Assembly (NCBI GenBank): GCA_000165345.1
Contig: CM000429.1
Coordinates: 96,001-160,000, forward strand
Reading direction: 5' to 3'
DNA: 64,000 nucleotides
Shown here: positions 48,482 through 64,000 of the stretch, one piece after another
How the letters are laid out: each line of letters starts with the position of its first letter
Numbering within the stretch: position 1 is the first letter of the stretch
Notes under the pieces: model-generated
What the model was told of the DNA's origin: nothing
Databases searched by the model: none
The model's input: only the letters and a program-made list of their open reading frames with translations
Program-made: the position numbers and the translations under genes

Positions 48482-49798
48482 ATGGCTTACCTTAGCCGAA
48501 GATTAAAAGCCCAAGCCATTACACTATTCTTCTTTCTAATTGCTTTCATCTCTTTAAATGAGTTCTTTTCTGAAGCATCATCTACTCAACAAAAAAGAGA
48601 ACTTAAAAGTGTCCGATTTGTTCAAAGTGGGCAACCCCCATATGTATCATCTTCAAAACCAGGGCAATACTTTAGACATCTCCAGACAACTGTAGAACAA
48701 GATTCTAGCTCATCTCCTGATGAATCTTCTCCAAAAGAACAATCTCGTCTCAAACATGTTGGTCCAAAGTATAGATTTGTTCACGCACCAGTTGGATATG
48801 AGAAGTCAAAGAGTACATATTTAGCCGAAATCCAATCATTAAAGGAGGCAAATGAAAAATTAAATGAAGAAGTTAAAAGTCAGGCTCAAAAGATTAAAGC
48901 TTTAATGGCTGAAAACAAAGAGTTGAGAGAAAAAATTGAGGCTGAATTAAAAAAGACTAATTCATCAAATTCCAAGCTTAGAAGTTTAGAAGAAGATTTA
49001 AAGAAGAAAGAAAGACAAAATAATTCATTGTCAAGTACATTATCCCAAAAGGAAAAGACTATAAGTGAACAAAAGGCAGAAATCAGATCATTAGTACAAA
49101 AAATCCAAGATAAGGAAACATTTTTGGAATCTAAAGAAAAAGCACTATCTGAATTAGAAAAACAAATGAATAATAAAATTGAGCATTTACAAGTAAGAGA
49201 AAAAGAACAAGAAAAAGTCAAAGAAGAAAAAGAATTGGAAGTATTGAGACTTATGGAAAAGATTGAGGTTCTTTCTGCCAATGTTAGGGAAAATTCATCA
49301 AAACAAGAATCACTAGTTAGTGAAAAGAATCAACTTGAAGCTAGGATCAAAGAATTAATGGCGGAAAGAGATAATGCAAATAAGGCCCTGAATGAATGTC
49401 TTGAATCTCTTAATGCTAAAGAAGTCAAGAATGAAGCAGAGAATGTTCCGAAAGAAACTCAGCCAGAAGAAAAAAGAAGAGCTTTATATAATCTTGTATT
49501 AAAGCAAATGGGTAGGAAACAAATGAAAGAAAGATGGGTGAAAGCACCTCCACTTAGACGTCCTGAAGGAATTAATGTAGAAAGTGACTTGGTTCCTGAA
49601 ATAGTTAAGGTCTTTGATTCACTTAAGAAAAAAAGAGAGGACGAGTTTAAAGCCTTTGTAACTGAAAATGGCCTTGAAAATGAAGATAGTGTAAAACAAA
49701 GACAATTATATGAAAAATATAAAGAGAAAAATATTGCTTCATCACCAGCTGGAATCCAACAATTTGCCCGTTTTAAGAAAGAAAGCGTTTCTGATTAA
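48482..49798 (+). CDS. secreted coiled-coil protein (438 aa)
   Basis: Signal peptide/anchor LKAQAITLFFFLIAFISLNEFFSEA. Long K/E/L heptad region (EIQSLKEANEKLNEEVKSQAQKIKALMAENKELREKIE...). Confidence 0.5.
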   Translation: MAYLSRRLKAQAITLFFFLIAFISLNEFFSEASSTQQKRELKSVRFVQSGQPPYVSSSKPGQYFRHLQTTVEQDSSSSPDESSPKEQSRLKHVGPKYRFVHAPVGYEKSKSTYLAEIQSLKEANEKLNEEVKSQAQKIKALMAENKELREKIEAELKKTNSSNSKLRSLEEDLKKKERQNNSLSSTLSQKEKTISEQKAEIRSLVQKIQDKETFLESKEKALSELEKQMNNKIEHLQVREKEQEKVKEEKELEVLRLMEKIEVLSANVRENSSKQESLVSEKNQLEARIKELMAERDNANKALNECLESLNAKEVKNEAENVPKETQPEEKRRALYNLVLKQMGRKQMKERWVKAPPLRRPEGINVESDLVPEIVKVFDSLKKKREDEFKAFVTENGLENEDSVKQRQLYEKYKEKNIASSPAGIQQFARFKKESVSD

Positions 49799-50343
49799 TT
49801 TGTCAATTTCATTCCAAAAAAAGCTTTCGTGATGGCGCCATTGCATGGTTTTGAGCGCCTTTCAGCGGCACGGCATGCAAAACGGTAACTTTGTTTATGC
49901 ATAGCATTATAATGAGCAATAAGTAATAGAATAATATAATATTAGTAAATATAGTTAAATGTGCATATGTATAAAATTTGTCTATAATTTGCATAAAAGA
50001 TACAATGTTAAAATTTTTGAATACTAATTTGAAAAATAAGCTATAGGCTTTAAAAAGATTTTATCAAAGGTGGCTATAAATAGGTAATAGTAGAACAAGA
50101 GAGCTGAATACTTTTTGGCTTAAAAGTTATTAAATAAACTGAATAATGGCTTAAAACTTAAGATCACCAAGTTACGTTAATATATTGTAGAAATTATATA
50201 AACGAAAATATATATTTATAATTTGATAAAGCTTTTTCTTCTTTCCTATCTGTTTTAAATGGATTTATGTGTTACTCTCTAAATTAGCAAGAATTAAAGA
50301 TTCCAAAATTCATATATCAGAAGATATCAATTAGAAGGGAAAA

Positions 50344-51273
50344 ATGGTTATGAAATTAGAACTCAAACTTCCAGGTACTGACGTCGGAATGAGAATAGCT
50401 TTTGGTCACCTAGATGAAAATTCAACTGGGTCAAGGACAAAAGCCTCCTCTTCTTCTTCATCCTCCACTTCCTCTCCTACTCTTCCCTCTAAACAAAACT
50501 CTGGAGCGAAGATTAAGGTAATAAAGAATGACCTAGAAGAAAGTGAATGTGAATGTGATGATTGTTCTGGAAAAGCCAAAACTAAAGAAAAGGCTATTTC
50601 TCATAAAGATGATGATCAATATTCTGTTGACATGGTAACCAAGGTATTTGCATCACTTATGCAGTGTACAGCATCCAATATTAATAACAGTCAGTTTAAC
50701 CAAAATAATAAACTTAATCAGAAATCTAAAGGATTAAAACAAGTCAATTCATCCAAATCCAATAATAAATACGCTTCTGATAGTGAAGATGACCCCTTAG
50801 CAAGAGGTATTCTTGGAAAAGGATGTTCATCCGACTTCTCTGTCTCCCAATCTCTCTATCCTGATGATATCCTAGTTTCTTATGAACCCAGAAGGAAGAA
50901 GTCACCTAAATCTAATAAAAGTCCCGCCAAAACTAAATCTGCTCCTTTGAGTAGCCAAGTTCAACAAAATACTAAGGATCTTAAAGATGTAAGAATCATC
51001 CCTATCAACAAATCAACAAATGCTAAGATTCTACCCAACAGAAATTTCAAAGAAAGTAAATATGATATTTCTTGTATTTCAGTCCCAACTTTCTGTAACA
51101 AGGCAAAACTCATTAGTTGTTGTAACGCCAGACTTATTCCTCAAATTCCTAGGTGTGATCTAACCAGACATGAAGACGAAAATCTGATGATTTCAGTTCC
51201 ATCCGCGATTTATCCAGATAATATCATTCTCACATTAAAAAATCCAAAGCCAAAGAAAAATAAGAAAAAGTAA
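50344..51273 (+). CDS. hypothetical Ser/Lys-rich protein (309 aa)
   Basis: ATG at 50344. Continuous ORF. Poly-Ser tract, CECDDC cluster, KKNKKK C-terminal tail. No recognisable domain. Confidence 0.4.
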   Translation: MVMKLELKLPGTDVGMRIAFGHLDENSTGSRTKASSSSSSSTSSPTLPSKQNSGAKIKVIKNDLEESECECDDCSGKAKTKEKAISHKDDDQYSVDMVTKVFASLMQCTASNINNSQFNQNNKLNQKSKGLKQVNSSKSNNKYASDSEDDPLARGILGKGCSSDFSVSQSLYPDDILVSYEPRRKKSPKSNKSPAKTKSAPLSSQVQQNTKDLKDVRIIPINKSTNAKILPNRNFKESKYDISCISVPTFCNKAKLISCCNARLIPQIPRCDLTRHEDENLMISVPSAIYPDNIILTLKNPKPKKNKKK

Positions 51274-52108
51274 CCTATGTCCATGCATACCAATATGCAT
51301 GCGCACACAACTTGGCGCCCAAAAGTTAACTTCTATATTACAATTTATTTATATAAATGGCTCATTAAAGTATATTCATTTAAACAGAGAATTAAAACAG
51401 AATATCAACAAAAAAAAAATTATATCAAAAAAAAAGTCATTCTTTAATAGAATATAATACCAGGGGGTCACAATTCTTTTTACTTTTACAACATCTTACA
51501 ATCATAAAATCTCACTTCATTCATGTCGACAATGTCATAAGGGGCTTTTCAGAAAGAAAAATAATAGAATGAAAAACAAATATAGGAGCTTCAATAATAA
51601 ACCTATTTAGATAACTAAAATTAAGAGCTAATTATTTCTGAAATAGACCTGAACAAAATTACCTAAAAGAATTCGTGTACTTATTAACCTAGTAGGACTT
51701 CCTATTCTTTTTCCTTTTTACTCTAAAAAAAACCTTAATAAAGTATATCCTAGTCTTTTCCTTCCAAAAAACTGACCCACTTTGGCGGGAAAATAGGAGC
51801 CAATATTTTAGCTAAATATTCATCCATTTCAAAAGGCGTCTGTATTTACTTTATCAAATACTTTTTTATTTAAATTTAAACGTCATCAAGAAGTTTCTAA
51901 GAAGGTCCAGATCCTTAATCACATCTATTTTGATGACCACTGTTTAAATAGGTGTTGCTCTTTAGGCCTTGAATCGCTCAAATTCATAATACATGCAAGT
52001 GTAAATGTCTAATCTTAATTAATTTTAGTAATAATAAATACAAACTCTCAAAACAAGCAAATAATCAAAGAGTCTGAGTCATATATGGAAGCTATTGACT
52101 TGATTTAC

Positions 52109-55100
52109 CTAGTTTTTTCTTCTCATTCTTCTTTGTTGTTTATTTGATGGGCTTGGACTCGAACCTTTCTTATCCGAGAGGACTATTTCGCTTTCATTTC
52201 TGCTGCTTTCATCCTCTGAAGATTTTGATTCAGAAAAAATTGTTTCCAAAGCTGAACTACCATAATATTCCCTTTCAAACTTTACTGCACTGTCAAACCA
52301 TTCTTTAATTTCAAAGTAAGCCTTCTTTAAAGATCTTCTCAAATCCTTATTTTTCTCTCTAAATATTAACTTCTTCAATAATTTCATCAACTTTGTTCTT
52401 TTTGTGAAAATACTTGACTCTATGTATTCATCAGAGTAAATTAATTTGCTTAGTTCTGGATACCTCAAGCTATCTAATAAACTCATCATCTCTAAATCAA
52501 ATCTGTAACTGCCCAAGTCATACTCAAAACCTGAAATTAATCTATTATAGAAATCAAGCTTCATATCATAATAATCCAGCTTTTTAAAACCATAAATTCC
52601 GATTGGTTGCTCATCTTCACCTAGTTTAAACTTTGGTAAGTAAGTATATCCAAATCTTGACAAGATACCTCTTTCCTCTAACTCTTTAAGTTTCAAAGAA
52701 GAACTTGGTTTAACTCCACGGAAGTGTGGATAGAAATACAACTTATCAAGTACCTCTCTAACATACATCAACTTTGTCTTTTCCTCGTGAATCTTGAGTA
52801 AAATTCTCATCTTAAGCTCATCATTCTCATTTTCATCAATAATCTCATCCTCTGGCAATGCTACTCTATTTAGTACAACAGATAAGGATTTGCGGTGTCT
52901 TGAGATTTCTCTAATCAAAAAGGACTCCAACTTTAACAACTCTAACATTCTCTCCTTTCTATCAGCTACTGCAATGTATAAATCTCTAACATAGTCCTCA
53001 ATAATTGTCAAAGCTTCCTCAAATACTAACTTTACTTTGCCCTTAAAGTCTGTAGAATACTTGGAAGCCTTCTTTGACTTATCTGAGTCCTTGTCGCTCT
53101 TCTTCTTACCACCCTTAATTTCTTCTTCATCATCTCCCTCATCAGAATCCACAAAATCGCCATTCTTTGGCTCCTCTATATAATACCTTGTTGAAGCATG
53201 GTTGGTATCAATCAACTTCTTAAAGTCGGAAGCTTTCCTATCTCCACTAAAAATACCAAATGTCTCACTATCCAAAGTCTTAGATATCTCTGGATTCTTT
53301 TCAAAGTCATCGAGTTCAATTCGGGTAATATCAACATTACCAACTGCATGTGCATTTTGTAAAAGATAATCATTCAATTTCTCTAACTTGTCCAATTCAT
53401 CCAATATCTGAACTCCTATTCTCTGTCTCTTATCTAAAGACTCTAAAACCTTGGAGGTAACCTCATCTTCCAAAGAGCTAATCTCAACGTTAATCAAGCT
53501 TGAATCTCTTATCAAATCATCACAAGCATCCTCTAATTCTCTAAAGTTATCATGGCATTCCTTTCCAATCCTTTGCAACTCTTGAACATTATTTTCATGC
53601 TCATTCTCAACCACATTTTTCAATTCATCTCTATTCTCAAAGAAAGAACCAAACTTCTTATTATCTGGCTCACTTACATACTTTGAAATGTCAATTCCTG
53701 TATCTGATCCTTTTAAAGCACTTGAAACTATATTCACATTCTCCAAAAGTGCTTTTGTTCTAAGAACTGACTTAGACTTATTCAATTCATCCAATAACTT
53801 CTTCTGGGATCTAATATATTCATTTCTTTTTTCTTCATACCTTTTCAATAATTGTGCACTGCGCGCCAAGTGAGCCGTGATTTTTCCCGCCACCTCCTTT
53901 TTCTCCAAATCATCCGAAGTTTCAATATGGTCTCTATATTGAGCAAGAGTGCCTTCGAATTTATCAAAGTTTGAAACCTTGTCATCAATTGCAGAGATGA
54001 ATCTATATGGAGATGGAGCTTGAGAGTCACTAAGTTTCCATCCTGTTGTTAAGAAGTTTTCTAATAGATTTTTGTGTGGATAACTTAACTTTCCAAGGTA
54101 TCCATTTAGGTAGAAACTGTCTTTATCAGAATAATCGATATTGAATGATAAATCAGTAGCTAAATGATGAATTTTAGCAACACCATCAAAGTTTTCAACT
54201 AATTTAAATCCTGTTGCAGAAACTGGGAGTATTTTTTCATTATTTTTCTCTTTTAAGTAGATAGTTTTGGGAATAAAGAAAAGAGAATTTCCAAATTTGT
54301 TGAATAAAAATTCCCTATAAACTTCAGTATTTGTTCCAACATCTCCTCCTTGTTCTCCAAGACGTTGTTTGAAGTACTTTTCTTCTTCTTTTACATCAGC
54401 ATCTGTATATAGGTTTTCAAATATAAGTGTATGTAATGATAGCATTTGTCCAACAGTCATATTATTAATATCTACCAATGTATAATCATCGATTCTGTCA
54501 ATTACTCTCTTTTGGGAAGAAGTGGAGTATTCTGATCTCTCGAAAAGTAACTGAGAGGGAGACTTAATGTTGTTATATTTGTTAACTCTGGTTAACTTAT
54601 GGAAAGTAGTTGATGATGAATCTTGGTTATTTTCTGACTCTTTTTCGTCAATATTTAAGCTTCCAGTTCCAATAGAATTATATCTATTACCATGATCACT
54701 TCCAGTAATTAATTCATCAAACTGTTCTCCAATATCACTACCATCAGATCTGGTGTTATATCTATCGCCTTTATAGATTAACCTACCATGATTGTCATAT
54801 ACATCTTCTCCTTTAACAATCTTTTCATATGCATTAGTCATGTTAATAATAGAAGACTTCGAAATAGTATCAGTCCAAGCTCTACCTTCAATTGGATCAT
54901 AAGGAGATGGTAAAGAATTATCGAAAGGATCAAAGTTATCAAGAATCAGATTATCGTTGAATAATCCATCATTGACAAAGTTTGTAGCATTTGCAAATCT
55001 GTCAATTGGAGTACCAGACTTATATTTCTCATATTCATCCTTAAGAGCATCTCTGAGGAAATAAGAAATCTCAATACTTTTGGAAATTGGGTCACTGCTA

Positions 55101-55927
55101 GCTTCTCCTGAGACAAAACCAAGCTTGTAAGCTTCTCTTTCTCTAAGTTTAATAGAGTATAAGAGGAATTCCTTTTCAGTCATAACTGGACCAAGTGGAT
55201 TCTTTTCAAGATATTTACGACGATACTCATTATATACCTTTCTAAGTTTGTCATTACTTTTTCCAAGCATTTCCCAAGCTTTGAGATAGGCAGCATCAAT
55301 TTCTTCTTTAGAAGCATTAATTGGAACACGTGGCATGTGTTTGAGAGCTTCTTCAGGATCAAAGTCAAATTTGTCCATATCATCAAATAATAAGTACTTT
55401 GGTAAGACTCCATCAGCTTTTTTAGTGGTTTCAACGCCAAATAGAGACTTCATTTCTGTATCAGTAGCATTGAGTTCTTTCTTGACGTAATCCATAAAGT
55501 GTTTCTTCATCTTTTTCACCTCACCTAGAGTTGGTACTTGTCCTGTAACATTAAATACATGTTCTCTGAAAGATTCTCTCATCATTCTTATGCGAGCTTC
55601 AGGAGGAAGTGGAGCTAAAGAATCCTTAGTTAAAGTACGTTCTGGTTCGTAAGCATATGGATATTCTTTATACTTAGAACCAAAAGCTCTATCCTTAGCA
55701 TCTCCCTTTTCATAATCTCTCAATCCCGGAATAGTTCTTCCATAATAACCTCCTCCAATTGCACCAATCTTAACAACTTTCTCGCTATCTGCTGGACCTT
55801 CCTTTCCCCAACGATTAGTTGCAATATGTTCCAATGGAACAGTCTCCATTGGAAAATAATAGTCGTAACTCATTGCCAGCTCAAAAAGCATTGGCAAGAT
55901 TACTGCCAACTTACGTTTTGATAACAT
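52109..55927 (-). CDS. large secreted protein (1272 aa), function unknown
   Basis: ATG at 55925-55927. N-terminal hydrophobic signal LAVILPMLFELAMS. Continuous ORF with moderate complexity. An E2F-like box (cccgccaatatgtggcgg) lies upstream near 56430-56460. Confidence 0.55.
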   Translation of the reverse strand: MLSKRKLAVILPMLFELAMSYDYYFPMETVPLEHIATNRWGKEGPADSEKVVKIGAIGGGYYGRTIPGLRDYEKGDAKDRAFGSKYKEYPYAYEPERTLTKDSLAPLPPEARIRMMRESFREHVFNVTGQVPTLGEVKKMKKHFMDYVKKELNATDTEMKSLFGVETTKKADGVLPKYLLFDDMDKFDFDPEEALKHMPRVPINASKEEIDAAYLKAWEMLGKSNDKLRKVYNEYRRKYLEKNPLGPVMTEKEFLLYSIKLREREAYKLGFVSGEASSDPISKSIEISYFLRDALKDEYEKYKSGTPIDRFANATNFVNDGLFNDNLILDNFDPFDNSLPSPYDPIEGRAWTDTISKSSIINMTNAYEKIVKGEDVYDNHGRLIYKGDRYNTRSDGSDIGEQFDELITGSDHGNRYNSIGTGSLNIDEKESENNQDSSSTTFHKLTRVNKYNNIKSPSQLLFERSEYSTSSQKRVIDRIDDYTLVDINNMTVGQMLSLHTLIFENLYTDADVKEEEKYFKQRLGEQGGDVGTNTEVYREFLFNKFGNSLFFIPKTIYLKEKNNEKILPVSATGFKLVENFDGVAKIHHLATDLSFNIDYSDKDSFYLNGYLGKLSYPHKNLLENFLTTGWKLSDSQAPSPYRFISAIDDKVSNFDKFEGTLAQYRDHIETSDDLEKKEVAGKITAHLARSAQLLKRYEEKRNEYIRSQKKLLDELNKSKSVLRTKALLENVNIVSSALKGSDTGIDISKYVSEPDNKKFGSFFENRDELKNVVENEHENNVQELQRIGKECHDNFRELEDACDDLIRDSSLINVEISSLEDEVTSKVLESLDKRQRIGVQILDELDKLEKLNDYLLQNAHAVGNVDITRIELDDFEKNPEISKTLDSETFGIFSGDRKASDFKKLIDTNHASTRYYIEEPKNGDFVDSDEGDDEEEIKGGKKKSDKDSDKSKKASKYSTDFKGKVKLVFEEALTIIEDYVRDLYIAVADRKERMLELLKLESFLIREISRHRKSLSVVLNRVALPEDEIIDENENDELKMRILLKIHEEKTKLMYVREVLDKLYFYPHFRGVKPSSSLKLKELEERGILSRFGYTYLPKFKLGEDEQPIGIYGFKKLDYYDMKLDFYNRLISGFEYDLGSYRFDLEMMSLLDSLRYPELSKLIYSDEYIESSIFTKRTKLMKLLKKLIFREKNKDLRRSLKKAYFEIKEWFDSAVKFEREYYGSSALETIFSESKSSEDESSRNESEIVLSDKKGSSPSPSNKQQRRMRRKN

Positions 55928-56852: not shown

Positions 56853-56933
56853 TGACAGGGACGGGATTCGAACCCGCGCAGTTACCTATAGGTGCCTAAA
56901 ACCTACCCCTTAGACCAACTCGGGCACCCTGCC
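56853..56933 (-). tRNA. tRNA-Leu(UAG): tRNA-Leu (anticodon UAG), class II with a long variable arm, 81 nt, no intron
   Basis: Reverse complement GGCAGGG TG CCCG AGTTGGTCTA AGGG G TAGGT TTTAGGC ACCTA TAGGTAACTGC GCGGG TTCGAAT CCCGT CCCTGTC A. 7-bp acceptor stem with one G-U pair, GTCTAAG D-loop typical of Leu, anticodon loop TT-TAG-GC, T-loop GGTTCGAATCC. Confidence 0.8.
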
Positions 56934-57237
56934 TAATAATTGTCGTGTTGAATAAGGTCAGAGATGAGATAAGATAGAAATTTAATTGTTTTTGTTGAGA
57001 AGATTTTGTGATGGTTAATTTTGAAATTTTAGATTTTAGGATGATATTATTCTCGAGTATTAATATAGTTTTTTTTAACAGTAAGTAGAGATGATAGTAA
57101 ATTTTATCTTTTAATTAGACAATTTGAATGGTACCATAATTTCTGAAAAGATTTTAGGATAATAGATAATGTAAGTTAGTCCCTTCGCCAGAACGCACCA
57201 CAACCCCTCCAGATAAGCAATAAATAATAGTATTATA

Positions 57238-60200
57238 TTACTCATTCTCCAAGATTTGAGATATAGAGATAGAGAGATCTGGTGTTAAGAATCTCCAATA
57301 ATTTGTTTTATAATCAAACAAGAAAAGATAGAGTGAATTACTGAGGGAAAGTCCATAAAGTTCATTTGCTGCAACTACTGCTAAGCAGTCAAAATCTTTA
57401 TGATTAATTTTCTTAGTCATAGATTTATCGAAGAACTTTTCCAATATTGAGGGGATCCTTTTGCAGAGATTTTCAGCCTTAGTTTCAATAGATCCTGGAT
57501 CATTTGATTTGGCAATTAAATCTTGACTAGTTTCAATAATGAAAGGTCTCTCCAATTGTTCTGGAATCATTCCATCTTTAATAACATCCTGAGTGAAGTG
57601 CTGTTTTAACCAAAAATTGGTAGTATTTAACTTTTTATCTTTTTTATAATGTTCTTGAGTTATTTCAGTGGGAAACAATTTAATTAGATAGCGCTTCAAG
57701 TTTGTAGTAATATCTTTAGTAGTCAAACCAATAGATTTTAAAGCTGTGAAACTACCTCCTCCCAACATTGCAGCTATTTTTTTAATAGCTTTCTCCATAT
57801 CTATATTATCAAATTCGGTTGTTCCTTGATGAAAATGTATAGAAGATTTAACTATTTCATTGATTTCATCAAAAGAGTTCTCAATTACTGCCTTATCAGC
57901 AAATTTGTATCTTAAAGCTGCATAACTTTGAATGAAATAAACAATTATCTTTGACAGATTTTTGTATTCTTCTTCAACATTTAAGTATTGATCTTGATTT
58001 CCTTTTATTTGATCACTTGAAGCTAAATCTTCTTTGGATGATTTTTTATCAAATCCAAAGAACTTTTTTGTGTTCGCAAATAATGTTGATAACTTATTTT
58101 CAAATATCTTTGAAAATTTCTTTTTGATTGGCTTTTCTTTATCTGAGAAACGTGTATCACCCTCTTCTGAGTGCTCTTTAGTTTCCTCTTCTGAAGGATC
58201 ATCATCTTCTTTTGGCAAATATTTACTTGAATTAGAAGGTTCAGTTTTTGAAGTCTCTCCTGTTGGTTCATAATGGAATTTATTCTCTTCTCGATAACTC
58301 GGTACAGAATAATTTTCTAAATCTTCATTTTCTGGAAGAGATGTTGTCTCATATTGAGATCCTAATCCATTATCAATTTTTTTAACACTTTTCTCACTAA
58401 TATCTTGAGAAATTTGATCATTTTTATTAATAATATCTTCATTCTCTTTTAGCTTAAAAGAATCCTCACTATTGAACGATTCATCTGCAAGTGGAATATC
58501 TTCAAATAAATTTACCATCACTGTAGTTTCCGGAGAAACATCTGCGCTTGGTTCTTTTTTTGGAGTTTGTTCAGATAAATCCATTTTTTCTTTTTCCTTA
58601 ACTTCTTCCTTTAAACTTGTTGAAGTTTCACTTTTTTCTGGTTCAACTTCATTATTCTTCTCTAAATTATTTAACTTTTCTTCTAACTTACTTTGTTCAG
58701 GAGAAGGAAGAGAAGGCTCTCCTCCAAGCTTCTTAGGCTCATTTAAATCCTCAAAAGACTTTTCAAATAGAGTATCTATTCCAAATCTTTCAGAAAATTC
58801 GCTATTTTCTTGCTCATCTTTAATAGGAGATCCAAAGTTAAGCAAGTTAAATGGAGAATCACTGCTTTTCTCAACATCATCCAAAGTAGATTCTGATGAA
58901 GAAATATCATTTTCCGAAGATTTGGCTTTGGATTCTTCGCTAGCATGAACTTCAGGTTCCTTTTTAAACGATTCCAATAATTCTTTTGCTTTGTTTAAAA
59001 TTCCGGATCGTTTTTCTTTTCCTTTATTATTTTTTTTCTTTTTACTCTTTCTTTTCTTATTTTTCCCCTTCTTTTTACCTATAATTGATTTCTCATCCAA
59101 TTCTGATTTTTTAGAAGAATCTCCTGCTTTTGAGTCTTCAGTTTCGCTTCCAATATTATACATTTCCGAAATTTCTTTGCTACTCTTACTGAGTTCCCCA
59201 TTACTTTGACTTTTTTCTCCCTTGAATATTCCCATTTCCTTTGCTCTTTCACGATTTCTAATGAGCTCATCTTCAAAAATAGGTTCAATTTCACTTTTTT
59301 CTGGACTAATTGTTCTCTTTTTTGATAAATGAATTAACTTGTTTGCTGTATCGTTAAGATTGCCGTCCCAATGTTGTCTCATGGCTTCTCTTATTTCCAC
59401 ATCAAATAAATCCTTTTTCAACAAGTAACCATTAGCAATGGTTTGCCCATTGAAGATTTCTCTTTCTATTTGATTAAATATCGTCCAAATATCATAAACT
59501 ATATGAATTTTTTCATCTTCAGTTGTAGAATCTGAGAACTGGCTTCCAAATCCGCTTCCCATAAATATATCCAAAATAACTTCTGGTAAACCTTCTGAAA
59601 TAGAAATTTCAGTTTTGAAAAACTCAATGACTGAAGGGTTATTACAATATTCTTCTAATATTGAAAATTTAATCCCAAGTCTCGCCAAATAATCATTTAC
59701 AAATATATTAAACCATTTGATTCTTAATTTAACAAACGTTTCAAGCTGAGAATTTGGATCTATTTCTATTGCTTGACTTTTCTCGCCTTTAATACTTTTC
59801 GATAAAATTTCTCCACTTTGGCTATTATCAATAGCTACCACACTATTCTCATACTGTTTTTTATTTGTCTTAGATACTGATCTTGAAATACTAGATTCTT
59901 CAAAAGTATCAGGAACTTCTAATGATGAGGAATTTATCGAAGAATTTGATAAATCATTTGAAGTAAATTCTTGCGACTTAGTATATTCTTTATCGTTATT
60001 CTTACTCATAATAGAATTATCTCCTTTTGAATCTCGTTGGAAATTTATAGATTCTCTATAATATTTCATCGTATCCAAAGCATTTTCAACTCCAAGCCCA
60101 TTCAAATAAGAGTAATATTTAGAGTCCAACTCAGAATCCATATTCTGCAAATAGTATCTTTCTAAACCATTAAAGAAAGCATTTAAAGACTCTAAGACTA

Positions 60201-61059
60201 ACATTTTTCTCATTTCCTCACTCATATTTGTAGTTGTAATTGATGTGAGAATACCACTAGCCAAGAAAACCCTCCAAATTGAGTTTGGAAGTACTTCAAT
60301 ATTTAATTCCTTTTCCCTTGATGGCCAGTTGGAATTGAAAAAATCAAAGTTTTCTGGACTATACATTGCCTCTTCATTAATATTTAATGGGAGTCCTTTT
60401 CTTGCCAAGTAATCCATGCTGAATTCCTTGAACATGAACATTCTCATCTTAATACCATCATTATTTTTAGATATATCCAAATCATCTAATAGTGATGAAT
60501 CCTCAAAATCTGATATTTCTTCATCATTTTTATTTATTAATTCTGTGTGCGCATGTGGATGACTATTCCCATGCAAAGGAAATACATACTCCGGTATAAT
60601 GGTTGGCTCATTAACCACATGCATGCCAATATTGTCAGTTTTCTGGCTGGCTTTGGCGCCATCGCTCGTTATTAAAAGGTCATTAAGCGCAGAAATAATT
60701 TGTTCATCTTTTTCTGCAACATCTTTTGCTTCATTAACAAGTTGGGAGAATTCTTCATAGTCTTTGGGAATTAAAATATTGTTGTCCCATATATCATTTT
60801 CTATTTCGAATAAATTTCTTGGGCTGTCACAGAACTCTGAATCCGATGGGATTATTAGCGGAATGAGCCTATGACCTTTATGGACCATTAGGATTCCCCT
60901 TCCAGGGATTTCCAAACCATCAAAAGGAGGATCAAAGCAAGAAATTAAATTTGAACCTTCCTCATAATTTCTACCTATTTCTTCTGAATAGCATATTTGG
61001 AACGTTGAATACAATAAAATTAAGCTAAATATTAAATTGAAACCTGATTTTTCAAACAT
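57238..61059 (-). CDS. large secreted acidic/Ser-rich protein (1273 aa), function unknown
   Basis: ATG at 61057-61059. Signal peptide MFEKSGFNLIFSLILLYSTFQICYSEE. Long E/S/K-rich central region with a KKKGKNKKRKSKKKKNNKGKEKR basic patch. Confidence 0.55.
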   Translation of the reverse strand: MFEKSGFNLIFSLILLYSTFQICYSEEIGRNYEEGSNLISCFDPPFDGLEIPGRGILMVHKGHRLIPLIIPSDSEFCDSPRNLFEIENDIWDNNILIPKDYEEFSQLVNEAKDVAEKDEQIISALNDLLITSDGAKASQKTDNIGMHVVNEPTIIPEYVFPLHGNSHPHAHTELINKNDEEISDFEDSSLLDDLDISKNNDGIKMRMFMFKEFSMDYLARKGLPLNINEEAMYSPENFDFFNSNWPSREKELNIEVLPNSIWRVFLASGILTSITTTNMSEEMRKMLVLESLNAFFNGLERYYLQNMDSELDSKYYSYLNGLGVENALDTMKYYRESINFQRDSKGDNSIMSKNNDKEYTKSQEFTSNDLSNSSINSSSLEVPDTFEESSISRSVSKTNKKQYENSVVAIDNSQSGEILSKSIKGEKSQAIEIDPNSQLETFVKLRIKWFNIFVNDYLARLGIKFSILEEYCNNPSVIEFFKTEISISEGLPEVILDIFMGSGFGSQFSDSTTEDEKIHIVYDIWTIFNQIEREIFNGQTIANGYLLKKDLFDVEIREAMRQHWDGNLNDTANKLIHLSKKRTISPEKSEIEPIFEDELIRNRERAKEMGIFKGEKSQSNGELSKSSKEISEMYNIGSETEDSKAGDSSKKSELDEKSIIGKKKGKNKKRKSKKKKNNKGKEKRSGILNKAKELLESFKKEPEVHASEESKAKSSENDISSSESTLDDVEKSSDSPFNLLNFGSPIKDEQENSEFSERFGIDTLFEKSFEDLNEPKKLGGEPSLPSPEQSKLEEKLNNLEKNNEVEPEKSETSTSLKEEVKEKEKMDLSEQTPKKEPSADVSPETTVMVNLFEDIPLADESFNSEDSFKLKENEDIINKNDQISQDISEKSVKKIDNGLGSQYETTSLPENEDLENYSVPSYREENKFHYEPTGETSKTEPSNSSKYLPKEDDDPSEEETKEHSEEGDTRFSDKEKPIKKKFSKIFENKLSTLFANTKKFFGFDKKSSKEDLASSDQIKGNQDQYLNVEEEYKNLSKIIVYFIQSYAALRYKFADKAVIENSFDEINEIVKSSIHFHQGTTEFDNIDMEKAIKKIAAMLGGGSFTALKSIGLTTKDITTNLKRYLIKLFPTEITQEHYKKDKKLNTTNFWLKQHFTQDVIKDGMIPEQLERPFIIETSQDLIAKSNDPGSIETKAENLCKRIPSILEKFFDKSMTKKINHKDFDCLAVVAANELYGLSLSNSLYLFLFDYKTNYWRFLTPDLSISISQILENE

Positions 61060-61603
61060 TGTTTTTCATTTCTTATAAATTCTTTTTAAATTAAAAGATA
61101 TTCTCAGAGTTTTCATATATATGGAAAGCTTTACTTGACAAAGAGAGTTTACGTTTGACCGATTCTTCCTGTTTGTTTTTTATTTTTTGGATTTCTGAGA
61201 TATTAATGTCAAAATAACTATACCGCCCTCCCTTGTGTGTTAGACATGCACACAAATAATTAAAAAAAAAAAAAATAAAGTAAATCACAGCTGACACCAA
61301 AATGTTTGTTCTTCTTTAAACTTAAACGTCGCATTCTAGCTTAATTTAAGATCACAATCTTTGCTGTAATGTACTTGAGTAGTCGGTAGGCTCAAATAAC
61401 CTTGGAGTGATTACTAAAGACAATTTACACACACACGAAAACTATAATTTAAGAATCTTAAACGAAAAAAAAAATCATCTAGAAAGATAACATAGATTTT
61501 ATCTGCCCAAAGTTTTATATTATTTTTAGAAAAGGATAAATTATGTTTTGATGTATTTTAATCGAAATTTTATATGAATGCCAACAATCCAATTCTTTGA
61601 CGC

Positions 61604-62620
61604 TTAGAAAATGAGCGTTGATAACAAAACAAAAATGACTGGTATGTAAAGACTGGTCGAGACCTTAAAAGCAAAAGATGAATCATTTTTTCCAGAATCA
61701 TTTCCTGCATCTTTCATAATAGTTTCGTTGTGTGGGACAATATCATCAATTTCTTTGGTTTTATCATCTTCTGTTTCCTTGACAGAACTTTTTGTCTTAT
61801 TTTCAATATTTTTCGTATCAGGTTCAGTTTCTTTGGAATTCATTATTTCAATGGGCTCTGAAGTTGTAGTTGTACTGCTACTTGAAGTTGGTTTTGTGAG
61901 TAAATCAATGAACTTTTGACAAATTGAAGAATCTGGCTGGACATCGCATGGGCAACCGGGGTTCTTGTTATTTTTGTAACAACTACAGATGAGAGCATCC
62001 TCATCAGTGATTTGTTGATCTGCTGAGCATGGACAACCTTCCGATTCGGGATCTGTCACACATTTGTCCTGAATTGAACTTTCCTCAATAGAAATTGGAG
62101 TTAATCTTCTACAAGACTTTAATGTTACACAATGCTCGGAAAGCTCAGAATCTCCACTACATAAGCCTTCTTCCCCTAATGGATTTAAGAAGGAAGTACA
62201 ATTTGCATATGGGGTTACGTAAGTTAGTGGTGAAACAATGCACATTCTATCATGTTCTTCGTCCAAGCTGCTTAATCCACTTAAACATTTACATTCATCA
62301 GAGTCAGGTTTTGAGCAGAAGCAAGGAGGACTAGAAAATCCACTTTGTTGTGAGTCATAGCATGAACAATCTGATGGCAAGAAGTCGTAAAATGTTGGAC
62401 GAGTTTCTAATAGAGGATCACAAGGACATCCTGGGATTTGGGGAATTAAAGCACATAATAAGATGAAATTTGGTACTTTTGTGACTTCAGTATTACTATC
62501 TGAGTCTGCAATCCCGTTATCATCCTTATTTTGATGGCCCTCTTCAGATTCGAGTATTACATCTTGAGCTGTTGCTCTAAAGATAAGTTCAAAAAGAAAT
62601 AGAATGGCAAGTAATTTCAT
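61604..62620 (-). CDS. Cys-rich secreted/surface protein with a Thr/Ser stalk and a C-terminal hydrophobic (GPI-anchor-like or transmembrane) tail (338 aa)
   Basis: Signal peptide MKLLAILFLFELIFRATA. About 30 Cys in repeated GCPCD / CSCY / CKC contexts. Stalk TKPTSSSSTTTTSEPIE. C-terminal hydrophobic stretch VSTSLYIPVIFVLLSTLIF ending the ORF. Confidence 0.55.
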   Translation of the reverse strand: MKLLAILFLFELIFRATAQDVILESEEGHQNKDDNGIADSDSNTEVTKVPNFILLCALIPQIPGCPCDPLLETRPTFYDFLPSDCSCYDSQQSGFSSPPCFCSKPDSDECKCLSGLSSLDEEHDRMCIVSPLTYVTPYANCTSFLNPLGEEGLCSGDSELSEHCVTLKSCRRLTPISIEESSIQDKCVTDPESEGCPCSADQQITDEDALICSCYKNNKNPGCPCDVQPDSSICQKFIDLLTKPTSSSSTTTTSEPIEIMNSKETEPDTKNIENKTKSSVKETEDDKTKEIDDIVPHNETIMKDAGNDSGKNDSSFAFKVSTSLYIPVIFVLLSTLIF

Positions 62621-63885
62621 AACTTGTTGCGAGAGCTGGATTTAAGAATTGATTCTATATTAATGGCAGAATATTAATATTTAGTGACGAAAAACTTGAT
62701 AAAAGTGTTTTCTTTGGTTTTAGGTTTCAGGATATGTAATGCATTATTTGCATTTCCTTGTATCTCAACTCGGGCGCTTGTAAATTACTCGAATTAGAGT
62801 GTATGAAGTAATTTTGTGGGAAATAATTTTTTTCTTAGCTTCTACTAGGAAAATTTCATCTTTTTTTTTTTAATATAGTTATTCTCCAATAATATATCTG
62901 AAAATGTATTTATCTTATTCATAAGTTATTGGATTTTAAGCCAATATTTCCCTGCCATTTAATTATGTTATTTTCTAAATAATGATCTATATGAGGGGGT
63001 GGGTAATTGCACTGGTGCGCTAATATTAGTAAACATAATAATTATTAAGAAAAAAAACTCTAATAAAACATCAATGATAACCAATAATCTACAGTGTTAA
63101 TTCTCAATTCTTGCTTAATTTTAAAATCTGAAACCTTTAGTTCTTAACCTCAAACTTAAATCTCTACTCTGATTTTATCTAATTGTCAGTGTCCACATGC
63201 AATTGCATGTGCACATGCAAGGAATTTGCAAACACTGCGCTTACGTGTCAGAAAAACTGAATCTTCTGAATTAATTTAGTTGAAATATTACAATTATGAG
63301 CTTTCCAATAAATTTCCTCAGTTTAAGTTATTGAAGGTATTATTATTATTATTATTTCTCAGTTGGAGTTGGTAAAGCCAAGTATTGAAAAAAAGGGGTT
63401 AAAGAATTAAAAAAAAGTATTGGTACAATTAACTACAGTTAAAACCAAATTTAGCTATCTAAATGGTGAGAGCAAAGTATTCAATAATTAGAAGAAAAGT
63501 ACGTAATTAACAATGAAAATAATACAAATAATAAATATTAGAACAATTACGAGTAATATTGAATATTAACAAAATAAAAAGAAATTGGCAGTGATTCAAG
63601 TATAAAATTAATATATTTTCAGAACATTTTTTGGTGATTCAATGAATAAAATGCTTAATTTTTCCTAAACTAGGAAAAAAATTGACTAAGGCGGGAAAAG
63701 TGCATTTCAAATAATTAATTAAAGCAATAATAAGAAATTAAGCTCGATACTCGAGGTGCGCACAAATTTGCAGTATTTGACTCTAATGAGAAAAGTTGAA
63801 GCAAACTAGAATTAAAGATTAAATAAATGCACATTGAACTTACATATTTTTGAGTCAATAGTATTAATTCAAACGTTTGTTTCAA

Positions 63886-64000
63886 ATGGATACGTTTAGA
63901 ATTGCCAAACTGTTGTTATTTTTGACAACGCTAATAGCTATAAAGATCGCAGAAGAGAGAGTAACATTAAATTTATGTCAGATTTCTATAAATAGTTTAA
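63886..64000 (+). CDS. 5' end of a signal-peptide gene that continues past the window end (partial)
   Basis: ATG at 63886. MDTFRIAKLLLFLTTLIAIKIAEERVTLNLCQISINSL stays open to nt 64000. Hydrophobic N-terminus. Confidence 0.3.
   Translation, partial: MDTFRIAKLLLFLTTLIAIKIAEERVTLNLCQISINSL

What the first reader, a model, noticed from the sequence alone, without database searches (positions are those of the whole stretch)
48482..64000. Run of consecutive secretory-pathway genes, including a Cys-rich Thr-stalk GPI-like surface protein
Starting at 48482, the genes 48482..49798, 52109..55927, 57238..61059, 61604..62620 and the partial gene at 63886 all open with hydrophobic signal peptides. 61604..62620 has about 30 cysteines in repeated GCPCD/CSCY contexts, a TSSSSTTTTSE stalk and a terminal hydrophobic tail (VSTSLYIPVIFVLLSTLIF). 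That architecture fits a GPI-anchored, O-glycosylated surface protein. Such clustering of secreted low-complexity proteins in one 15-kb stretch suggests a co-regulated invasion- or surface-antigen neighbourhood. None of these matches a family I recognise.
Basis: inference. Interest (0 to 1): 0.5.

Follow-up and report, generated by a model that had tools for sequence, protein, structure and literature searches.

The report
Female-gamete Cys-rich GPI-type protein, Cryptosporidium
This stretch of Cryptosporidium parvum chromosome 1 holds five unrelated secreted-protein genes that are not switched on together, and one of them (cgd1_660) is an almost unchangeable, cysteine-rich, probably lipid-anchored protein made by female gametes rather than by the invasive stage, which makes it a candidate for fertilisation or oocyst formation.

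Summary
The window is C. parvum Iowa II chromosome 1, and the finding covers cgd1_620 to cgd1_670. The ORFs, hydrophobic N-termini, CxC motifs, Thr/Ser stalk and C-terminal hydrophobic tail are all real. Two details are wrong. cgd1_660 has 22 cysteines, not about 30. cgd1_630, which has no signal peptide, interrupts the run.

The genes are unrelated and single-copy. They sit in a syntenic block conserved from intestinal to gastric Cryptosporidium species. They are not one regulon:
- cgd1_620 and cgd1_650 peak together at 12 h and 36 h, when merozoites form.
- cgd1_640 is highest in sporozoites and asexual stages.
- cgd1_660 is almost silent in sporozoites and asexual stages and about 250-fold higher in sorted females.

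cgd1_660 reads as a cleaved signal peptide, a duplicated-CxC domain with 22 invariant cysteines, an O-glycosylation stalk, and a textbook GPI-type C-terminus kept in all 16 orthologues. Residues 50-147 are essentially invariant across intestinal species although synonymous sites are saturated. No family, solved structure or confident model matches it.

My best reading is a GPI-anchored macrogamete/zygote surface glycoprotein that acts in fertilisation or oocyst biogenesis. It is not an invasion antigen.

The parts
48482..49798 (+). cgd1_620. 438 aa with a signal-like N-terminus (n-region MAYLSRRLKAQ, h-region AITLFFFLIAFISL), then a Lys/Glu-rich coiled-coil-like protein.
   Evidence: ORF. Hydropathy 2.89. 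Source name CPHLJ_1g620. qPCR primers map inside the ORF with 1-2 indels. Listed as 'predicted as rhoptry protein' in PMC12604037. Transcript is zero at 2 and 6 h and peaks at 12 and 36 h.
50344..51273 (+). cgd1_630. 309 aa with no signal peptide. It interrupts the run.
   Evidence: ORF. N-terminal hydropathy 1.05. Source name CHM_1g630.
52109..55927 (-). cgd1_640. 1272 aa, 'signal peptide, large protein'. Likely cleavage at ELAMS|YDY.
   Evidence: Primers map. YDY after the hydrophobic segment is conserved in C. felis and C. ryanae. Predicted small-granule protein by hyperLOPIT and enriched in a DG8 pull-down (PMC13241007). Log2 CPM 15.7 in sporozoites; among the top 500 genes in all sorted stages.
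57238..61059 (-). cgd1_650. 1273 aa secreted protein, labelled 'CpLSP family' by sources. Likely cleavage at QICYS|EE.
   Evidence: Not a paralogue of cgd1_640 despite the near-equal length (BLASTP E = 0.69). Fast-evolving: 36% identity to C. ryanae and 28% to C. andersoni. Profile matches cgd1_620 with r = 0.99. Reported as a host-associated divergent locus.
61604..62620 (-). cgd1_660. 338 aa Cys-rich, stalked protein with a GPI-type C-terminus, expressed in female gametes. This is the focal gene.
62567..62620 (-). cgd1_660 signal peptide, residues 1-18 (MKLLAILFLFELIFRATA). Predicted cleavage before the invariant Q19-D20.
   Evidence: The hydrophobic segment varies between species (17-100% identity). 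Q19 and D20 are invariant in all orthologues. Residue -1 is A, T or S; residue -3 is A, V, I or C.
61910..62479 (-). cgd1_660 Cys-rich ectodomain, residues 48-237. It has 22 invariant cysteines, seven CxC motifs and an invariant N140-C-T sequon.
   Evidence: Identity is 86-100% across intestinal species and 70.5% to C. andersoni. For residues 50-147, pN = 0.000-0.017 while pS = 0.4-0.9.
62285..62455 (-). CxC module copy 1, residues 56-112. Pattern: C-x8-CxC-x17-CxC-x12-CxC-x7-CxC.
   Evidence: Aligns with residues 187-235. Smith-Waterman score 71 against 33.8 +/- 6.7 for shuffles; 1 of 2000 shuffles reaches it.
61919..62062 (-). CxC module copy 2, residues 187-234. Pattern: C-x8-CxC-x13-CxC-x8-CxC-x8-C.
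61859..61888 (-). Ser/Thr stalk TSSSSTTTTS, residues 245-254. Candidate site of dense O-GalNAc.
   Evidence: Present in every orthologue. It expands to about 30 residues of T/S in C. andersoni. GalNAc-transferase genes are present in the genome (PMC9713705).
61691..61858 (-). Variable acidic spacer, residues 255-310. It contains a conserved membrane-proximal motif with an invariant N298-x-T300 sequon (HNETIMKDAG).
   Evidence: N298 and T300 are invariant and K303 and D304 are at least 90% conserved, in a region that is otherwise 28-64% identical.
61607..61684 (-). GPI-attachment-type C-terminal signal, residues 313-338. Small-residue cluster D313-S-S-F-A317 (candidate omega S315, omega+2 A317), spacer FKVSTS, then hydrophobic LYIPVIFVLLSTLIF running to the C-terminus.
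   Evidence: The 13 orthologues of alignment A1 keep a hydrophobic 14-mer (KD 2.3-3.2) ending 0-4 residues from the C-terminus, and the C. ubiquitum, C. andersoni and C. serpentis orthologues have similar hydrophobic C-terminal tails. S315 is invariant in intestinal species and A317 is at least 90% conserved. Tail identity is only 5-25% in distant species, so the constraint is on its physical character. No other non-polytopic ORF in the window has such a C-terminus.
62621..63885 (.). Divergent intergenic region between cgd1_660 and cgd1_670. TGCAT (AP2_1-like) motifs lie at 62739-62753 and 63197-63220. An E2F-like GGCGGGAA lies at 63690.
   Evidence: There are 8 TGCAT/ATGCA hits against about 3.1 expected. 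Any regulatory meaning is inference only (motif families from PMC3734150).
63886..64000 (+). 5' end of cgd1_670 (1176 aa in full) with a signal-like N-terminus.
   Evidence: Primers map on L002. Orthologues occur in 11 clusters including the gastric species. No Pfam family.

Best explanation
The stretch is C. parvum chromosome 1, cgd1_620 to cgd1_670. It is an ancient block, syntenic across the genus, of unrelated single-copy genes. Five of the six products enter the secretory pathway. They serve different stages and compartments and do not form one module.

The focal gene, cgd1_660, is transcribed in the macrogamont before fertilisation. The steps I infer for its product are as follows.
1. 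It enters the ER through a signal peptide cleaved before Q19.
2. It folds into an ectodomain locked by up to 11 disulfides and built from a duplicated CxC module.
3. It is N-glycosylated at the conserved N140 and N298 sequons and O-GalNAc-modified on the Ser/Thr stalk.
4. Its C-terminal hydrophobic peptide is exchanged for a GPI anchor near S315 by the parasite transamidase.
5. It is then displayed on the macrogamete/zygote plasma membrane. The stalk holds out a domain that is almost invariant across species.
6. That domain most likely binds a conserved parasite partner during fertilisation or during oocyst-wall and sporont surface assembly.
7. Sporozoites then inherit the protein with the maternal membrane.

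Shown here or in published data: gene identity, architecture, conservation, purifying selection, synteny, stage-specific transcription, and presence of the protein in sporozoite vesicles.

Inferred: signal-peptide cleavage, disulfides, glycosylation, the GPI anchor, surface location and function.
For: Identity:
- Exact protein look-up identifies the genes.
- Published qPCR primers map onto the ORFs.

Architecture and conservation:
- cgd1_660 has 22 cysteines and seven CxC motifs, and all 22 cysteines are invariant from C. parvum to C. andersoni and C. serpentis.
- Residues 56-111 and 187-235 are an internal duplication (1 of 2000 shuffles reaches the score).
- The signal-peptide boundary, the Ser/Thr run and the C-terminal hydrophobic tail with upstream small residues are kept in all orthologues, although the tail sequence itself drifts to 5-25% identity.

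Selection:
- For residues 50-147, pN is 0.000 (C. ubiquitum), 0.009 (C. felis), 0.017 (C. ryanae) and 0.145 (C. andersoni), with pS of 0.40-0.90.
- The neighbours cgd1_640, cgd1_650 and cgd1_670 have pN of 0.10-0.50 in the same comparisons.

Stage:
- Transcript peaks at 48-72 h.
- Sorted females against asexual stages: logFC +8.0.
- The level is equal in unfertilised in vitro females and in vivo females (logFC -0.22).
- It is among the top 500 genes in females only.
- Log2 CPM is 1.5 in sporozoites, 3.3 at 24 h and 10.3 at 48 h.

Protein: detected in sporozoite-derived extracellular vesicles (PMC11039866).

Machinery: GPI synthesis genes, the transamidase (PIG-K, PIG-T, PIG-U) and GalNAc-transferases are encoded in the genome (PMC9713705).

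Context: a 2026 review states that early females express membrane and secreted proteins thought to act in fertilisation, and that how females interact with males is unknown (PMC13657310).

The block:
- Synteny is conserved in C. ryanae, C. felis, C. ubiquitum, C. andersoni and C. serpentis.
- No paralogy among the genes.
- Their expression is discordant.
Against: - No dedicated predictor (SignalP, PredGPI, NetGPI) could be run. The GPI call rests on rule-based features and conservation.
- In the gastric species the alignment places T, not S, at the position of S315, so the exact omega site is uncertain.
- There are no localisation data for cgd1_660. Its hyperLOPIT assignment could not be read because Guerin 2023 is not held.
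- Protein in sporozoite vesicles could equally mean a sporozoite function.
- Gamete-recognition proteins often evolve fast, whereas this domain is nearly frozen. That fits a structural or assembly role at least as well as a recognition role.
- Both AlphaFold2 runs failed (pLDDT 35), so nothing structural supports a binding domain.
Confidence: 0.55

Rival explanations
1. The block is a co-regulated invasion or surface-antigen neighbourhood, and cgd1_660 is a sporozoite or merozoite surface antigen used at invasion.
For: - Five of six genes carry signal peptides.
- cgd1_620 and cgd1_650 share a merogony-peaking profile and appear in an early-invasion secretome list.
- cgd1_640 is very abundant in sporozoites.
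- cgd1_660 protein was found in sporozoite vesicles.
Against: - cgd1_660 mRNA is near background in sporozoites and 24 h asexual stages. It does not peak at 12 or 36 h, when zoite secretory genes peak.
- It is about 250-fold higher in females and equally high in unfertilised in vitro females. According to PMC13657310, microneme, rhoptry and glideosome genes appear only in in vivo females.
- Products are assigned to different organelles.
- No paralogy among the genes.
- The ectodomain is nearly invariant rather than diversifying.
Confidence: 0.08
2. cgd1_660 is a wall-forming-body cargo and a structural oocyst-wall component, functionally like a COWP. It would be cross-linked into the inner wall through its cysteines rather than acting at the plasma membrane.
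For: - It is Cys-rich: 22 Cys in 190 residues.
- It is female-specific, and its 48 h peak with a decline at 72 h resembles the 'Class I COWP' profile described in PMC3734150.
- The inner oocyst wall is thought to be a scaffold of disulfide-bonded, Cys-rich glycoproteins.
Against: - The conserved hydrophobic C-terminus with small residues upstream is the pattern expected of a GPI attachment signal (general knowledge of GPI signals).
- An exhaustive HMMER search with the domain found no relatives other than its own orthologues, so it is not homologous to COWPs.
- An even number of invariant cysteines in a duplicated module suggests intramolecular disulfides (inference).
- Detection in sporozoite vesicles points to a membrane rather than a wall.
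Confidence: 0.2
3. The C-terminal hydrophobic stretch is a true transmembrane anchor. That would make cgd1_660 a type I membrane protein with essentially no cytoplasmic tail, not a GPI-anchored one.
For: The segment is 14-17 hydrophobic residues long. Generic topology predictors would probably score it as a transmembrane helix (my expectation; none was run here).
Against: - Only 0-4 residues follow the segment, and most orthologues have no basic stop-transfer residues there.
- The segment is short for a plasma-membrane helix.
- Its sequence drifts freely while the small-residue cluster upstream is conserved. That is the GPI-signal pattern.
Confidence: 0.15
4. The CxC-rich domain is a metal-binding module of the metallothionein or CXC type, not a disulfide-locked fold.
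For: Seven CxC motifs. The resemblance to metal-binding CxC proteins is from memory only.
Against: - The protein has a signal peptide and would fold in the oxidising ER.
- No Pfam hit to metallothionein or CXC families at E <= 1.
Confidence: 0.03

Closest known systems
Plasmodium P25/P28 zygote-ookinete surface proteins (Pfs25, Pvs25, Pvs28)
   Same: From general knowledge: signal peptide, compact Cys-rich ectodomain (Pfs25 also has 22 cysteines), GPI anchor, transcripts made in the female sexual stage, and display on the post-fertilisation surface. cgd1_660 shares the overall layout and the female-specific transcription.
   Different: P25/P28 are made of EGF-like domains. cgd1_660 matches no EGF or Pvs28 model in Pfam at E <= 1, and no homologue was found outside Cryptosporidium. 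cgd1_660 also carries a mucin-like stalk. Translational repression is unknown for it. This is an analogy, not homology.
Cryptosporidium gp60 (gp40/gp15, cgd6_1080)
   Same: Signal peptide, Ser/Thr O-glycosylated region and GPI anchor on gp15 (PMC12688253). Both were detected in sporozoite vesicles.
   Different: gp60 is highly polymorphic, is not described as carrying a Cys-rich domain, and is reported on sporozoites, merozoites and male gametes. cgd1_660 is nearly invariant, Cys-rich and female-specific. My attempt to retrieve gp15 for a direct comparison of the C-terminal signals failed.
Cryptosporidium oocyst wall proteins (COWPs)
   Same: Cys-rich, secreted and female-expressed, with a 48-72 h peak.
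   Different: COWPs are described as secreted wall-forming-body cargo built into the oocyst wall. cgd1_660 has an orphan duplicated CxC module, a stalk and a GPI-type tail, and shows no detectable sequence relationship to any other protein.
6-Cys (s48/45) and SRS families of apicomplexan GPI-anchored surface proteins
   Same: GPI-anchored, disulfide-bonded surface proteins, some of which act in gamete fertility (general knowledge).
   Different: No Pfam s48/45 or SAG match. The cysteine spacing is entirely different, with seven CxC pairs.
Cryptosporidium secreted-protein gene clusters (SKSR, MEDLE, MVP, INS)
   Same: Neighbouring genes that encode signal-peptide proteins.
   Different: Those are tandem paralogue families, often near telomeres. 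The genes here are mutually unrelated, single-copy, about 150-175 kb from the start of a C. parvum chromosome 1 record, and syntenic across the genus.

Membership tests
GPI-anchored protein (class) | Cleavable N-terminal signal peptide | tested here: met
   Rule-based only. The h-region is LLAILFLFELIF (KD 2.81). Residues at -1 and -3 are small or permitted in all orthologues, and the mature N-terminus QD is invariant. SignalP was not available.
GPI-anchored protein (class) | Hydrophobic segment of 12-20 residues at the extreme C-terminus with no cytoplasmic tail | tested here: met
   In the 13 orthologues of alignment A1 the best 14-mer has KD 2.3-3.2 and ends 0-4 residues from the C-terminus; the C. 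ubiquitum, C. andersoni and C. serpentis orthologues end in comparable hydrophobic tails by eye.
GPI-anchored protein (class) | Small omega and omega+2 residues followed by a short polar spacer before the hydrophobic tail | tested here: met
   In C. parvum: S315-F-A317, then FKVSTS. S315 is invariant in intestinal species and A317 is at least 90% conserved. Gastric species have SSDATSA. The exact omega site is ambiguous.
GPI-anchored protein (class) | Biochemical proof: PI-PLC release, ethanolamine or myristate labelling, or mass spectrometry of the C-terminus | not testable with these tools
   No experimental data found in the papers searched.
Mucin-type O-glycoprotein | Dense Ser/Thr array and GalNAc-transferases in the organism | tested here: met
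   The run is 10 residues in C. parvum and about 30 in C. andersoni. Five candidate GalNAc-T genes are listed in PMC9713705. Actual glycosylation was not tested.
P25/P28 (EGF-like) family | EGF-like domains detectable by profile | tested here: not met
   No EGF or Pvs28 Pfam hit at E <= 1 in any of 13 orthologues. PDB profile search is empty at E <= 10.
6-Cys s48/45 family | s48/45 domain detectable by profile | tested here: not met
   No Pfam hit.
COWP family | Sequence homology to COWP Cys-rich repeats | tested here: not met
   phmmer of the core against 1.84 billion cluster representatives returned only its own orthologue cluster and one spurious Cys-free bacterial protein.
Co-regulated secretory gene cluster | Shared expression profile across members | tested here: not met
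   cgd1_620 and cgd1_650 correlate (r = 0.99). cgd1_660 does not (r = -0.2 to -0.3). Female-versus-asexual logFC values are +8.0, +1.6, +2.6, -2.6 and -2.1 for cgd1_660, 650, 670, 640 and 630.
Tandem paralogue family | Detectable similarity between neighbours | tested here: not met
   All pairwise BLASTP E-values exceed 0.06.

The most novel reading that the evidence does not exclude
cgd1_660 is the female-side surface molecule that male gametes recognise, or that organises the zygote surface for oocyst-wall assembly. That would make it a functional counterpart of the Plasmodium P25/P28 or P47 class, built from a Cryptosporidium-only fold. Because residues 50-147 are identical across the intestinal species examined, it would also be a transmission-blocking target common to those species.
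Probability: 0.22. Interest if true: 0.75.

Novelty: new member of a known kind. Interest (0 to 1): 0.4.

Why it matters
Fertilisation and oocyst formation are the least understood parts of the Cryptosporidium life cycle. [quoted passage not shown] CRISPR tagging and knockout could test it directly. If it proves essential, its invariance would make it attractive as a cross-species transmission-blocking antigen. The wider cluster matters less. It shows that adjacent secretory genes in this compact genome need not be co-regulated. All these genes are already annotated, and some already have organelle assignments.

Tried and rejected
1. AlphaFold2 on the full-length alignment and on the core alone gave mean pLDDT of 35 both times. 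The models are unusable, so I ran no fold search.
2. Searches for relatives found nothing:
   - Pfam on C. parvum cgd1_660 and on 13 orthologues.
   - PDB with the single sequence and with a profile.
   - phmmer against 1.84 billion cluster representatives. Its only extra hit, P0042, is a Cys-free bacterial repeat protein and is spurious.
3. After I first inferred that gastric species lack the gene. That was wrong. I fetched the syntenic locus through the cgd1_670 orthologues and found clear orthologues in C. andersoni and C. serpentis.
4. I suspected cgd1_640 and cgd1_650 (1272 and 1273 aa, adjacent, same strand) were tandem duplicates. I rejected this (E = 0.69).
5. I queried with a gp15 C-terminal sequence recalled from memory, hoping to compare GPI signals. 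Nothing was found, so my recollection is unverified and I did not use it.
6. Guerin 2023 (hyperLOPIT) and Walzer 2024 (single-cell atlas) are not held. Several supplements are not held either.
7. Newer locus tags (CPATCC_000361 and others) return no papers.
8. TGCAT and E2F-like motifs upstream of cgd1_660 and cgd1_670 are only mildly enriched. Denser clusters occur elsewhere in the window, so I did not use them as evidence.

Full report
**What the region is**

The window is AT-rich, about 30% G+C. Exact-sequence look-up of the five complete ORFs returns C. parvum Iowa II proteins on contigs of about 0.9 Mb (chromosome 1, from the cgd1_/1g locus tags). Source names include CPHLJ_1g620, CHM_1g630, 'signal peptide, large protein' and 'Secreted Protein (CpLSP family)'. 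Mapping the published qPCR primers of Mauzy et al. 2012 fixes the identities:

| Gene | Window coordinates | Strand |
|---|---|---|
| cgd1_620 | 48482-49798 | + |
| cgd1_640 | 52109-55927 | - |
| cgd1_650 | 57238-61059 | - |
| cgd1_660 | 61604-62620 | - |
| cgd1_670 | starts at 63886 | + |

cgd1_670 is 1176 aa in a full contig. cgd1_630 (50344-51273) lies between cgd1_620 and cgd1_640.

**Checking the observation**

Each of the five named genes begins with a hydrophobic segment. The best 10-residue Kyte-Doolittle mean is 2.15-2.89, against 0.5-1.4 for the clearly cytosolic genes of the window.

These segments are kept in the C. felis, C. ryanae, C. ubiquitum and C. andersoni orthologues although their sequences differ. 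They are followed by conserved mature N-termini: QDVIL in cgd1_660 and YDY in cgd1_640. That is the pattern expected of working signal peptides.

Two details are wrong. cgd1_660 has 22 cysteines, not about 30. cgd1_630 has no signal peptide, so the run is five of six genes.

The enrichment is modest. Elsewhere in the window 3 of 14 genes look secretory (P = 0.018, selected post hoc). With a genome-wide signal-peptide rate of 12-25% (my estimate), roughly 0.5-18 such runs per genome would arise by chance.

**The block as a whole**

The genes are not paralogues. Every pairwise BLASTP E-value exceeds 0.06, and that includes cgd1_640 against cgd1_650 despite their 1272 and 1273 residues. None has a Pfam family.

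The order ABC transporter ... cgd1_670 (one strand) | cgd1_660-650-640 (other strand) is preserved in C. ryanae, C. felis, C. ubiquitum and the gastric species C. andersoni and C. serpentis. This is an old, stable arrangement, not a recently expanded antigen family.

Divergence differs greatly between members. Against C. ryanae, cgd1_650 is 36% identical, cgd1_640 37% and cgd1_670 54%.

**Are the genes co-regulated?**

Published data answer this.

*Mauzy 2012 RT-qPCR series (supplement; correlations).*
- cgd1_620 and cgd1_650 are undetectable at 2 and 6 h. They peak at 12 h, drop at 24 h and rise again at 36 h (r = 0.99 between them). This is the merozoite-formation pattern.
- Both genes are listed among potential microneme and rhoptry proteins in a 2025 secretome/transcriptome study, with cgd1_620 'predicted as rhoptry protein' (PMC12604037).
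- cgd1_640 is high at 2, 12 and 24 h.
- cgd1_670 is low and flat.
- cgd1_660 is at 0-1% of its maximum up to 24 h, 8% at 36 h, 100% at 48 h and 54% at 72 h (r = -0.2 to -0.3 against cgd1_620 and cgd1_650).

*Tandel 2019 RNA-seq of sorted parasites, log2 CPM (supplement 4).*

| Gene | Asexual | Female in vitro | Female in vivo | logFC female vs asexual |
|---|---|---|---|---|
| cgd1_660 | 4.4 | 12.4 | 12.2 | +8.0 |
| cgd1_650 | 6.1 | 7.8 | 7.7 | +1.6 |
| cgd1_670 | 5.0 | 7.5 | 7.3 | +2.6 |
| cgd1_640 | 13.0 | 10.4 | 12.8 | -2.6 |
| cgd1_630 | 6.5 | 4.3 | 7.5 | -2.1 |

*Bulk samples from the same paper.* cgd1_660 is 1.5 in sporozoites, 3.3 at 24 h and 10.3 at 48 h. cgd1_640 is 15.7 in sporozoites. 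cgd1_660 is in the list of genes among the top 500 in females, in vitro and in vivo, but not in asexual stages. cgd1_640 is among the top 500 in all three.

*Localisation.* A 2026 study cites hyperLOPIT for cgd1_640 as a predicted small-granule protein and recovers it in a pull-down with the interface protein DG8 (PMC13241007).

The block therefore mixes at least three programmes and at least two organelles.

**Anatomy of cgd1_660** (coordinates checked)

| Residues | Feature |
|---|---|
| 1-18 | Signal peptide. Its sequence is free to vary (17-100% identity). It ends before the invariant Q19-D20. |
| 19-47 | Acidic segment. |
| 48-237 | Cysteine-rich domain. |
| 245-254 | TSSSSTTTTS stalk. 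|
| 255-310 | Variable acidic spacer. It ends in a conserved motif with an invariant N298-x-T300 sequon. |
| 313-317 | Small-residue cluster DSSFA. |
| 318-323 | Six-residue spacer. |
| 324-338 | LYIPVIFVLLSTLIF, running to the last residue. |

The domain holds all 22 cysteines. All 22 are invariant in the 13 sequences of alignment A3, which includes the gastric species. Fourteen of them lie in seven CxC pairs.

Residues 56-111 align with residues 187-235. The pattern is C-x8-CxC-x13/17-CxC-x8/12-CxC-x7/8-C. The score is 71, against 33.8 +/- 6.7 for composition-preserving shuffles, and 1 of 2000 shuffles reaches it. The domain is thus a duplicated module flanking a five-cysteine middle.

**Is the C-terminus a GPI signal?**

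I could not run a predictor, so I tested the defining features directly.
- The 13 orthologues of alignment A1 have a hydrophobic 14-mer (mean KD 2.3-3.2) ending 0-4 residues from the C-terminus, and the three further orthologues (C. ubiquitum, C. andersoni, C. serpentis) end in similar hydrophobic tails.
- The tail sequence drifts to 5-25% identity in distant species.
- S315 is invariant among intestinal species and A317 is at least 90% conserved. The gastric species carry SSDATSA at the same distance.
- Constraint on small residues 6-11 positions upstream of a freely drifting terminal hydrophobic peptide is the pattern of a GPI signal. It is not the pattern of a transmembrane helix with a functional tail.
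- No other non-polytopic ORF in the window ends this way.
- The parasite encodes the GPI pathway and the transamidase, plus five candidate GalNAc-transferases for the stalk (PMC9713705).

I put the GPI reading at roughly 0.7. The main alternative is a tail-less type I anchor.

**An unexpected result: the ectodomain is almost frozen**

Across intestinal species the core (residues 48-237) is 86-100% identical, while the stalk and spacer are 28-99% identical. The codon-level figures for residues 50-147 are as follows.

| Comparison with C. parvum | pN | pS |
|---|---|---|
| C. ubiquitum | 0.000 | 0.40 |
| C. felis | 0.009 | 0.90 |
| C. ryanae | 0.017 | 0.82 |
| C. andersoni | 0.145 | 0.75 |

In the same comparisons the neighbours cgd1_640, cgd1_650 and cgd1_670 have pN of 0.10-0.50. 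Synonymous sites are saturated, so the identity reflects very strong purifying selection and not recent common ancestry.

An immune-exposed invasion antigen is not expected to look like this. The pattern points to a surface that must fit a conserved partner or build a precise assembly.

**Relatives and structure**

None were found.
- Pfam gives nothing at E <= 1 for any orthologue.
- The PDB gives nothing with a profile at E <= 10.
- phmmer over 1.84 billion cluster representatives returns only the orthologue cluster and one spurious Cys-free bacterial protein.
- AlphaFold2 fails twice, with pLDDT of 35.

The domain is a Cryptosporidium-only orphan. My first conclusion that gastric species lack it was wrong. 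I used the cgd1_670 orthologues as handles and found the gene at the syntenic position in C. andersoni and C. serpentis. There it has the same layout and a much longer Thr-rich stalk.

**How it most likely works**

*Shown.*
- The transcript is made abundantly in macrogamonts, at equal levels in unfertilised in vitro females and in in vivo females (logFC -0.22).
- It is near background in sporozoites and asexual stages.
- The protein is present in vesicles shed by sporozoites (PMC11039866).

*Context.* According to a 2026 review, genes for zoite invasion machinery appear only in in vivo (fertilised) females. Females also stock material for fertilisation, for wall building and for the progeny sporozoites (PMC13657310).

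*Inferred.* The protein is translocated and its signal peptide is cleaved. It is disulfide-bonded and glycosylated, then GPI-anchored and displayed on the macrogamete and zygote plasma membrane. There its invariant domain engages a conserved parasite partner during fertilisation, or during organisation of the zygote and oocyst surface. Sporozoites bud from that maternal cell, so inheritance of a GPI protein with the membrane would explain protein without transcript in sporozoites.

*Rivals.*
- A COWP-like structural wall component (about 0.2).
- A tail-less transmembrane anchor instead of GPI (about 0.15).
- A metal-binding CxC protein (about 0.03).

**Comparison with known systems**

The closest in layout and timing are the Plasmodium P25/P28 proteins. 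From general knowledge, these are female-transcribed, have 22 cysteines in Pfs25, are GPI-anchored and sit on the zygote surface. They are EGF-like, and cgd1_660 matches no EGF model, so this is analogy only.

Within Cryptosporidium, gp15/gp40 shares the mucin-plus-GPI design but is polymorphic and expressed in zoites. COWPs share cysteine richness and female expression but show no homology to cgd1_660.

**Verdict**

The GPI-glycoprotein reading is reasonable and now better supported. The 'co-regulated invasion neighbourhood' reading is wrong.

The genes are all annotated, and the expression data were already public, so the block itself is ordinary. What is worth carrying forward is cgd1_660: an uncharacterised, female-specific, genus-restricted and extremely conserved protein that is probably surface-anchored.

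Noticed in passing
window 47466-48229 (+): cgd1_610 (Utp11) appears as two overlapping ORFs of 142 and 116 aa. A canonical intron of about 56 nt (GTAAGT ... TTAG, roughly 47811-47866) splits them.
   Followed up: partly
window 16051-16548 (-) and 17879-18376 (-): Two 165-aa paralogous ORFs with very hydrophobic termini lie 1.3 kb apart. Names in the Tandel supplement suggest they are the V-type ATPase proteolipid subunits cgd1_520 and cgd1_540. A (ATA)n array lies between them at 17755-17854.
   Followed up: no
window 37646-45229 (-), repeats at 37910-39002: cgd1_590 is a 2527-aa protein with a signal-like N-terminus. It carries a G+C-rich block (43% against about 30%) of degenerate tandem repeats with periods of 15-108 bp. 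[quoted passage not shown]
   Followed up: partly
window 5219-8017 (+): A 932-aa protein with a signal-like N-terminus (MRYLFLAIFYLFTLYTSLIYP), an 81-bp x 3.8 repeat at 5791-6094, a (TTCTGA)12 array and a poly-Asp/Glu tail, with no Pfam family. It is possibly cgd1_470, a mucin-like female-expressed gene, but I did not verify the identity.
   Followed up: no
window 20770-29757 (+): A 2995-aa ORF with a strongly hydrophobic N-terminus (KD 3.66), 57 cysteines and no Pfam family. It is another large uncharacterised secretory or membrane protein upstream of the block.
   Followed up: no
window 62739-62753, 63197-63220, 63690: The cgd1_660 / cgd1_670 divergent intergenic region has two small clusters of TGCAT (AP2_1-like) motifs. 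One lies about 120 bp upstream of the cgd1_660 start codon. An E2F-like GGCGGGAA lies about 195 bp upstream of cgd1_670. The enrichment is mild (8 hits against 3.1 expected), and denser TGCAT clusters occur at 45531-45640, about 49841 and 51241-51340.
   Followed up: partly
window 57238-61059 (-) versus 52109-55927 (-): Two adjacent same-strand genes encode 1273 and 1272 residues but show no detectable similarity (E = 0.69). Both evolve fast: cgd1_650 is 28% identical to C. andersoni and both are 36-37% identical to C. ryanae. cgd1_650 has been reported as a locus where an anthroponotic C. parvum isolate resembles C. hominis.
   Followed up: partly
L005 6671-7786 (C. andersoni), L006 6643-7689 (C. 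serpentis): The gastric-lineage orthologues of cgd1_660 were not listed by either protein search, although they are 53% identical overall and are called genes. I found them only through synteny. Their Thr/Ser stalk is about three times longer than in C. parvum.
   Followed up: yes
window 31759-32463 (-): A 234-aa protein with a hydrophobic N-terminus matches Sec66, a translocon subunit (Pfam E = 4.6e-5). It is a signal-anchored ER protein, not a secreted one. This shows that N-terminal hydrophobicity alone overcounts 'secreted' genes.
   Followed up: partly
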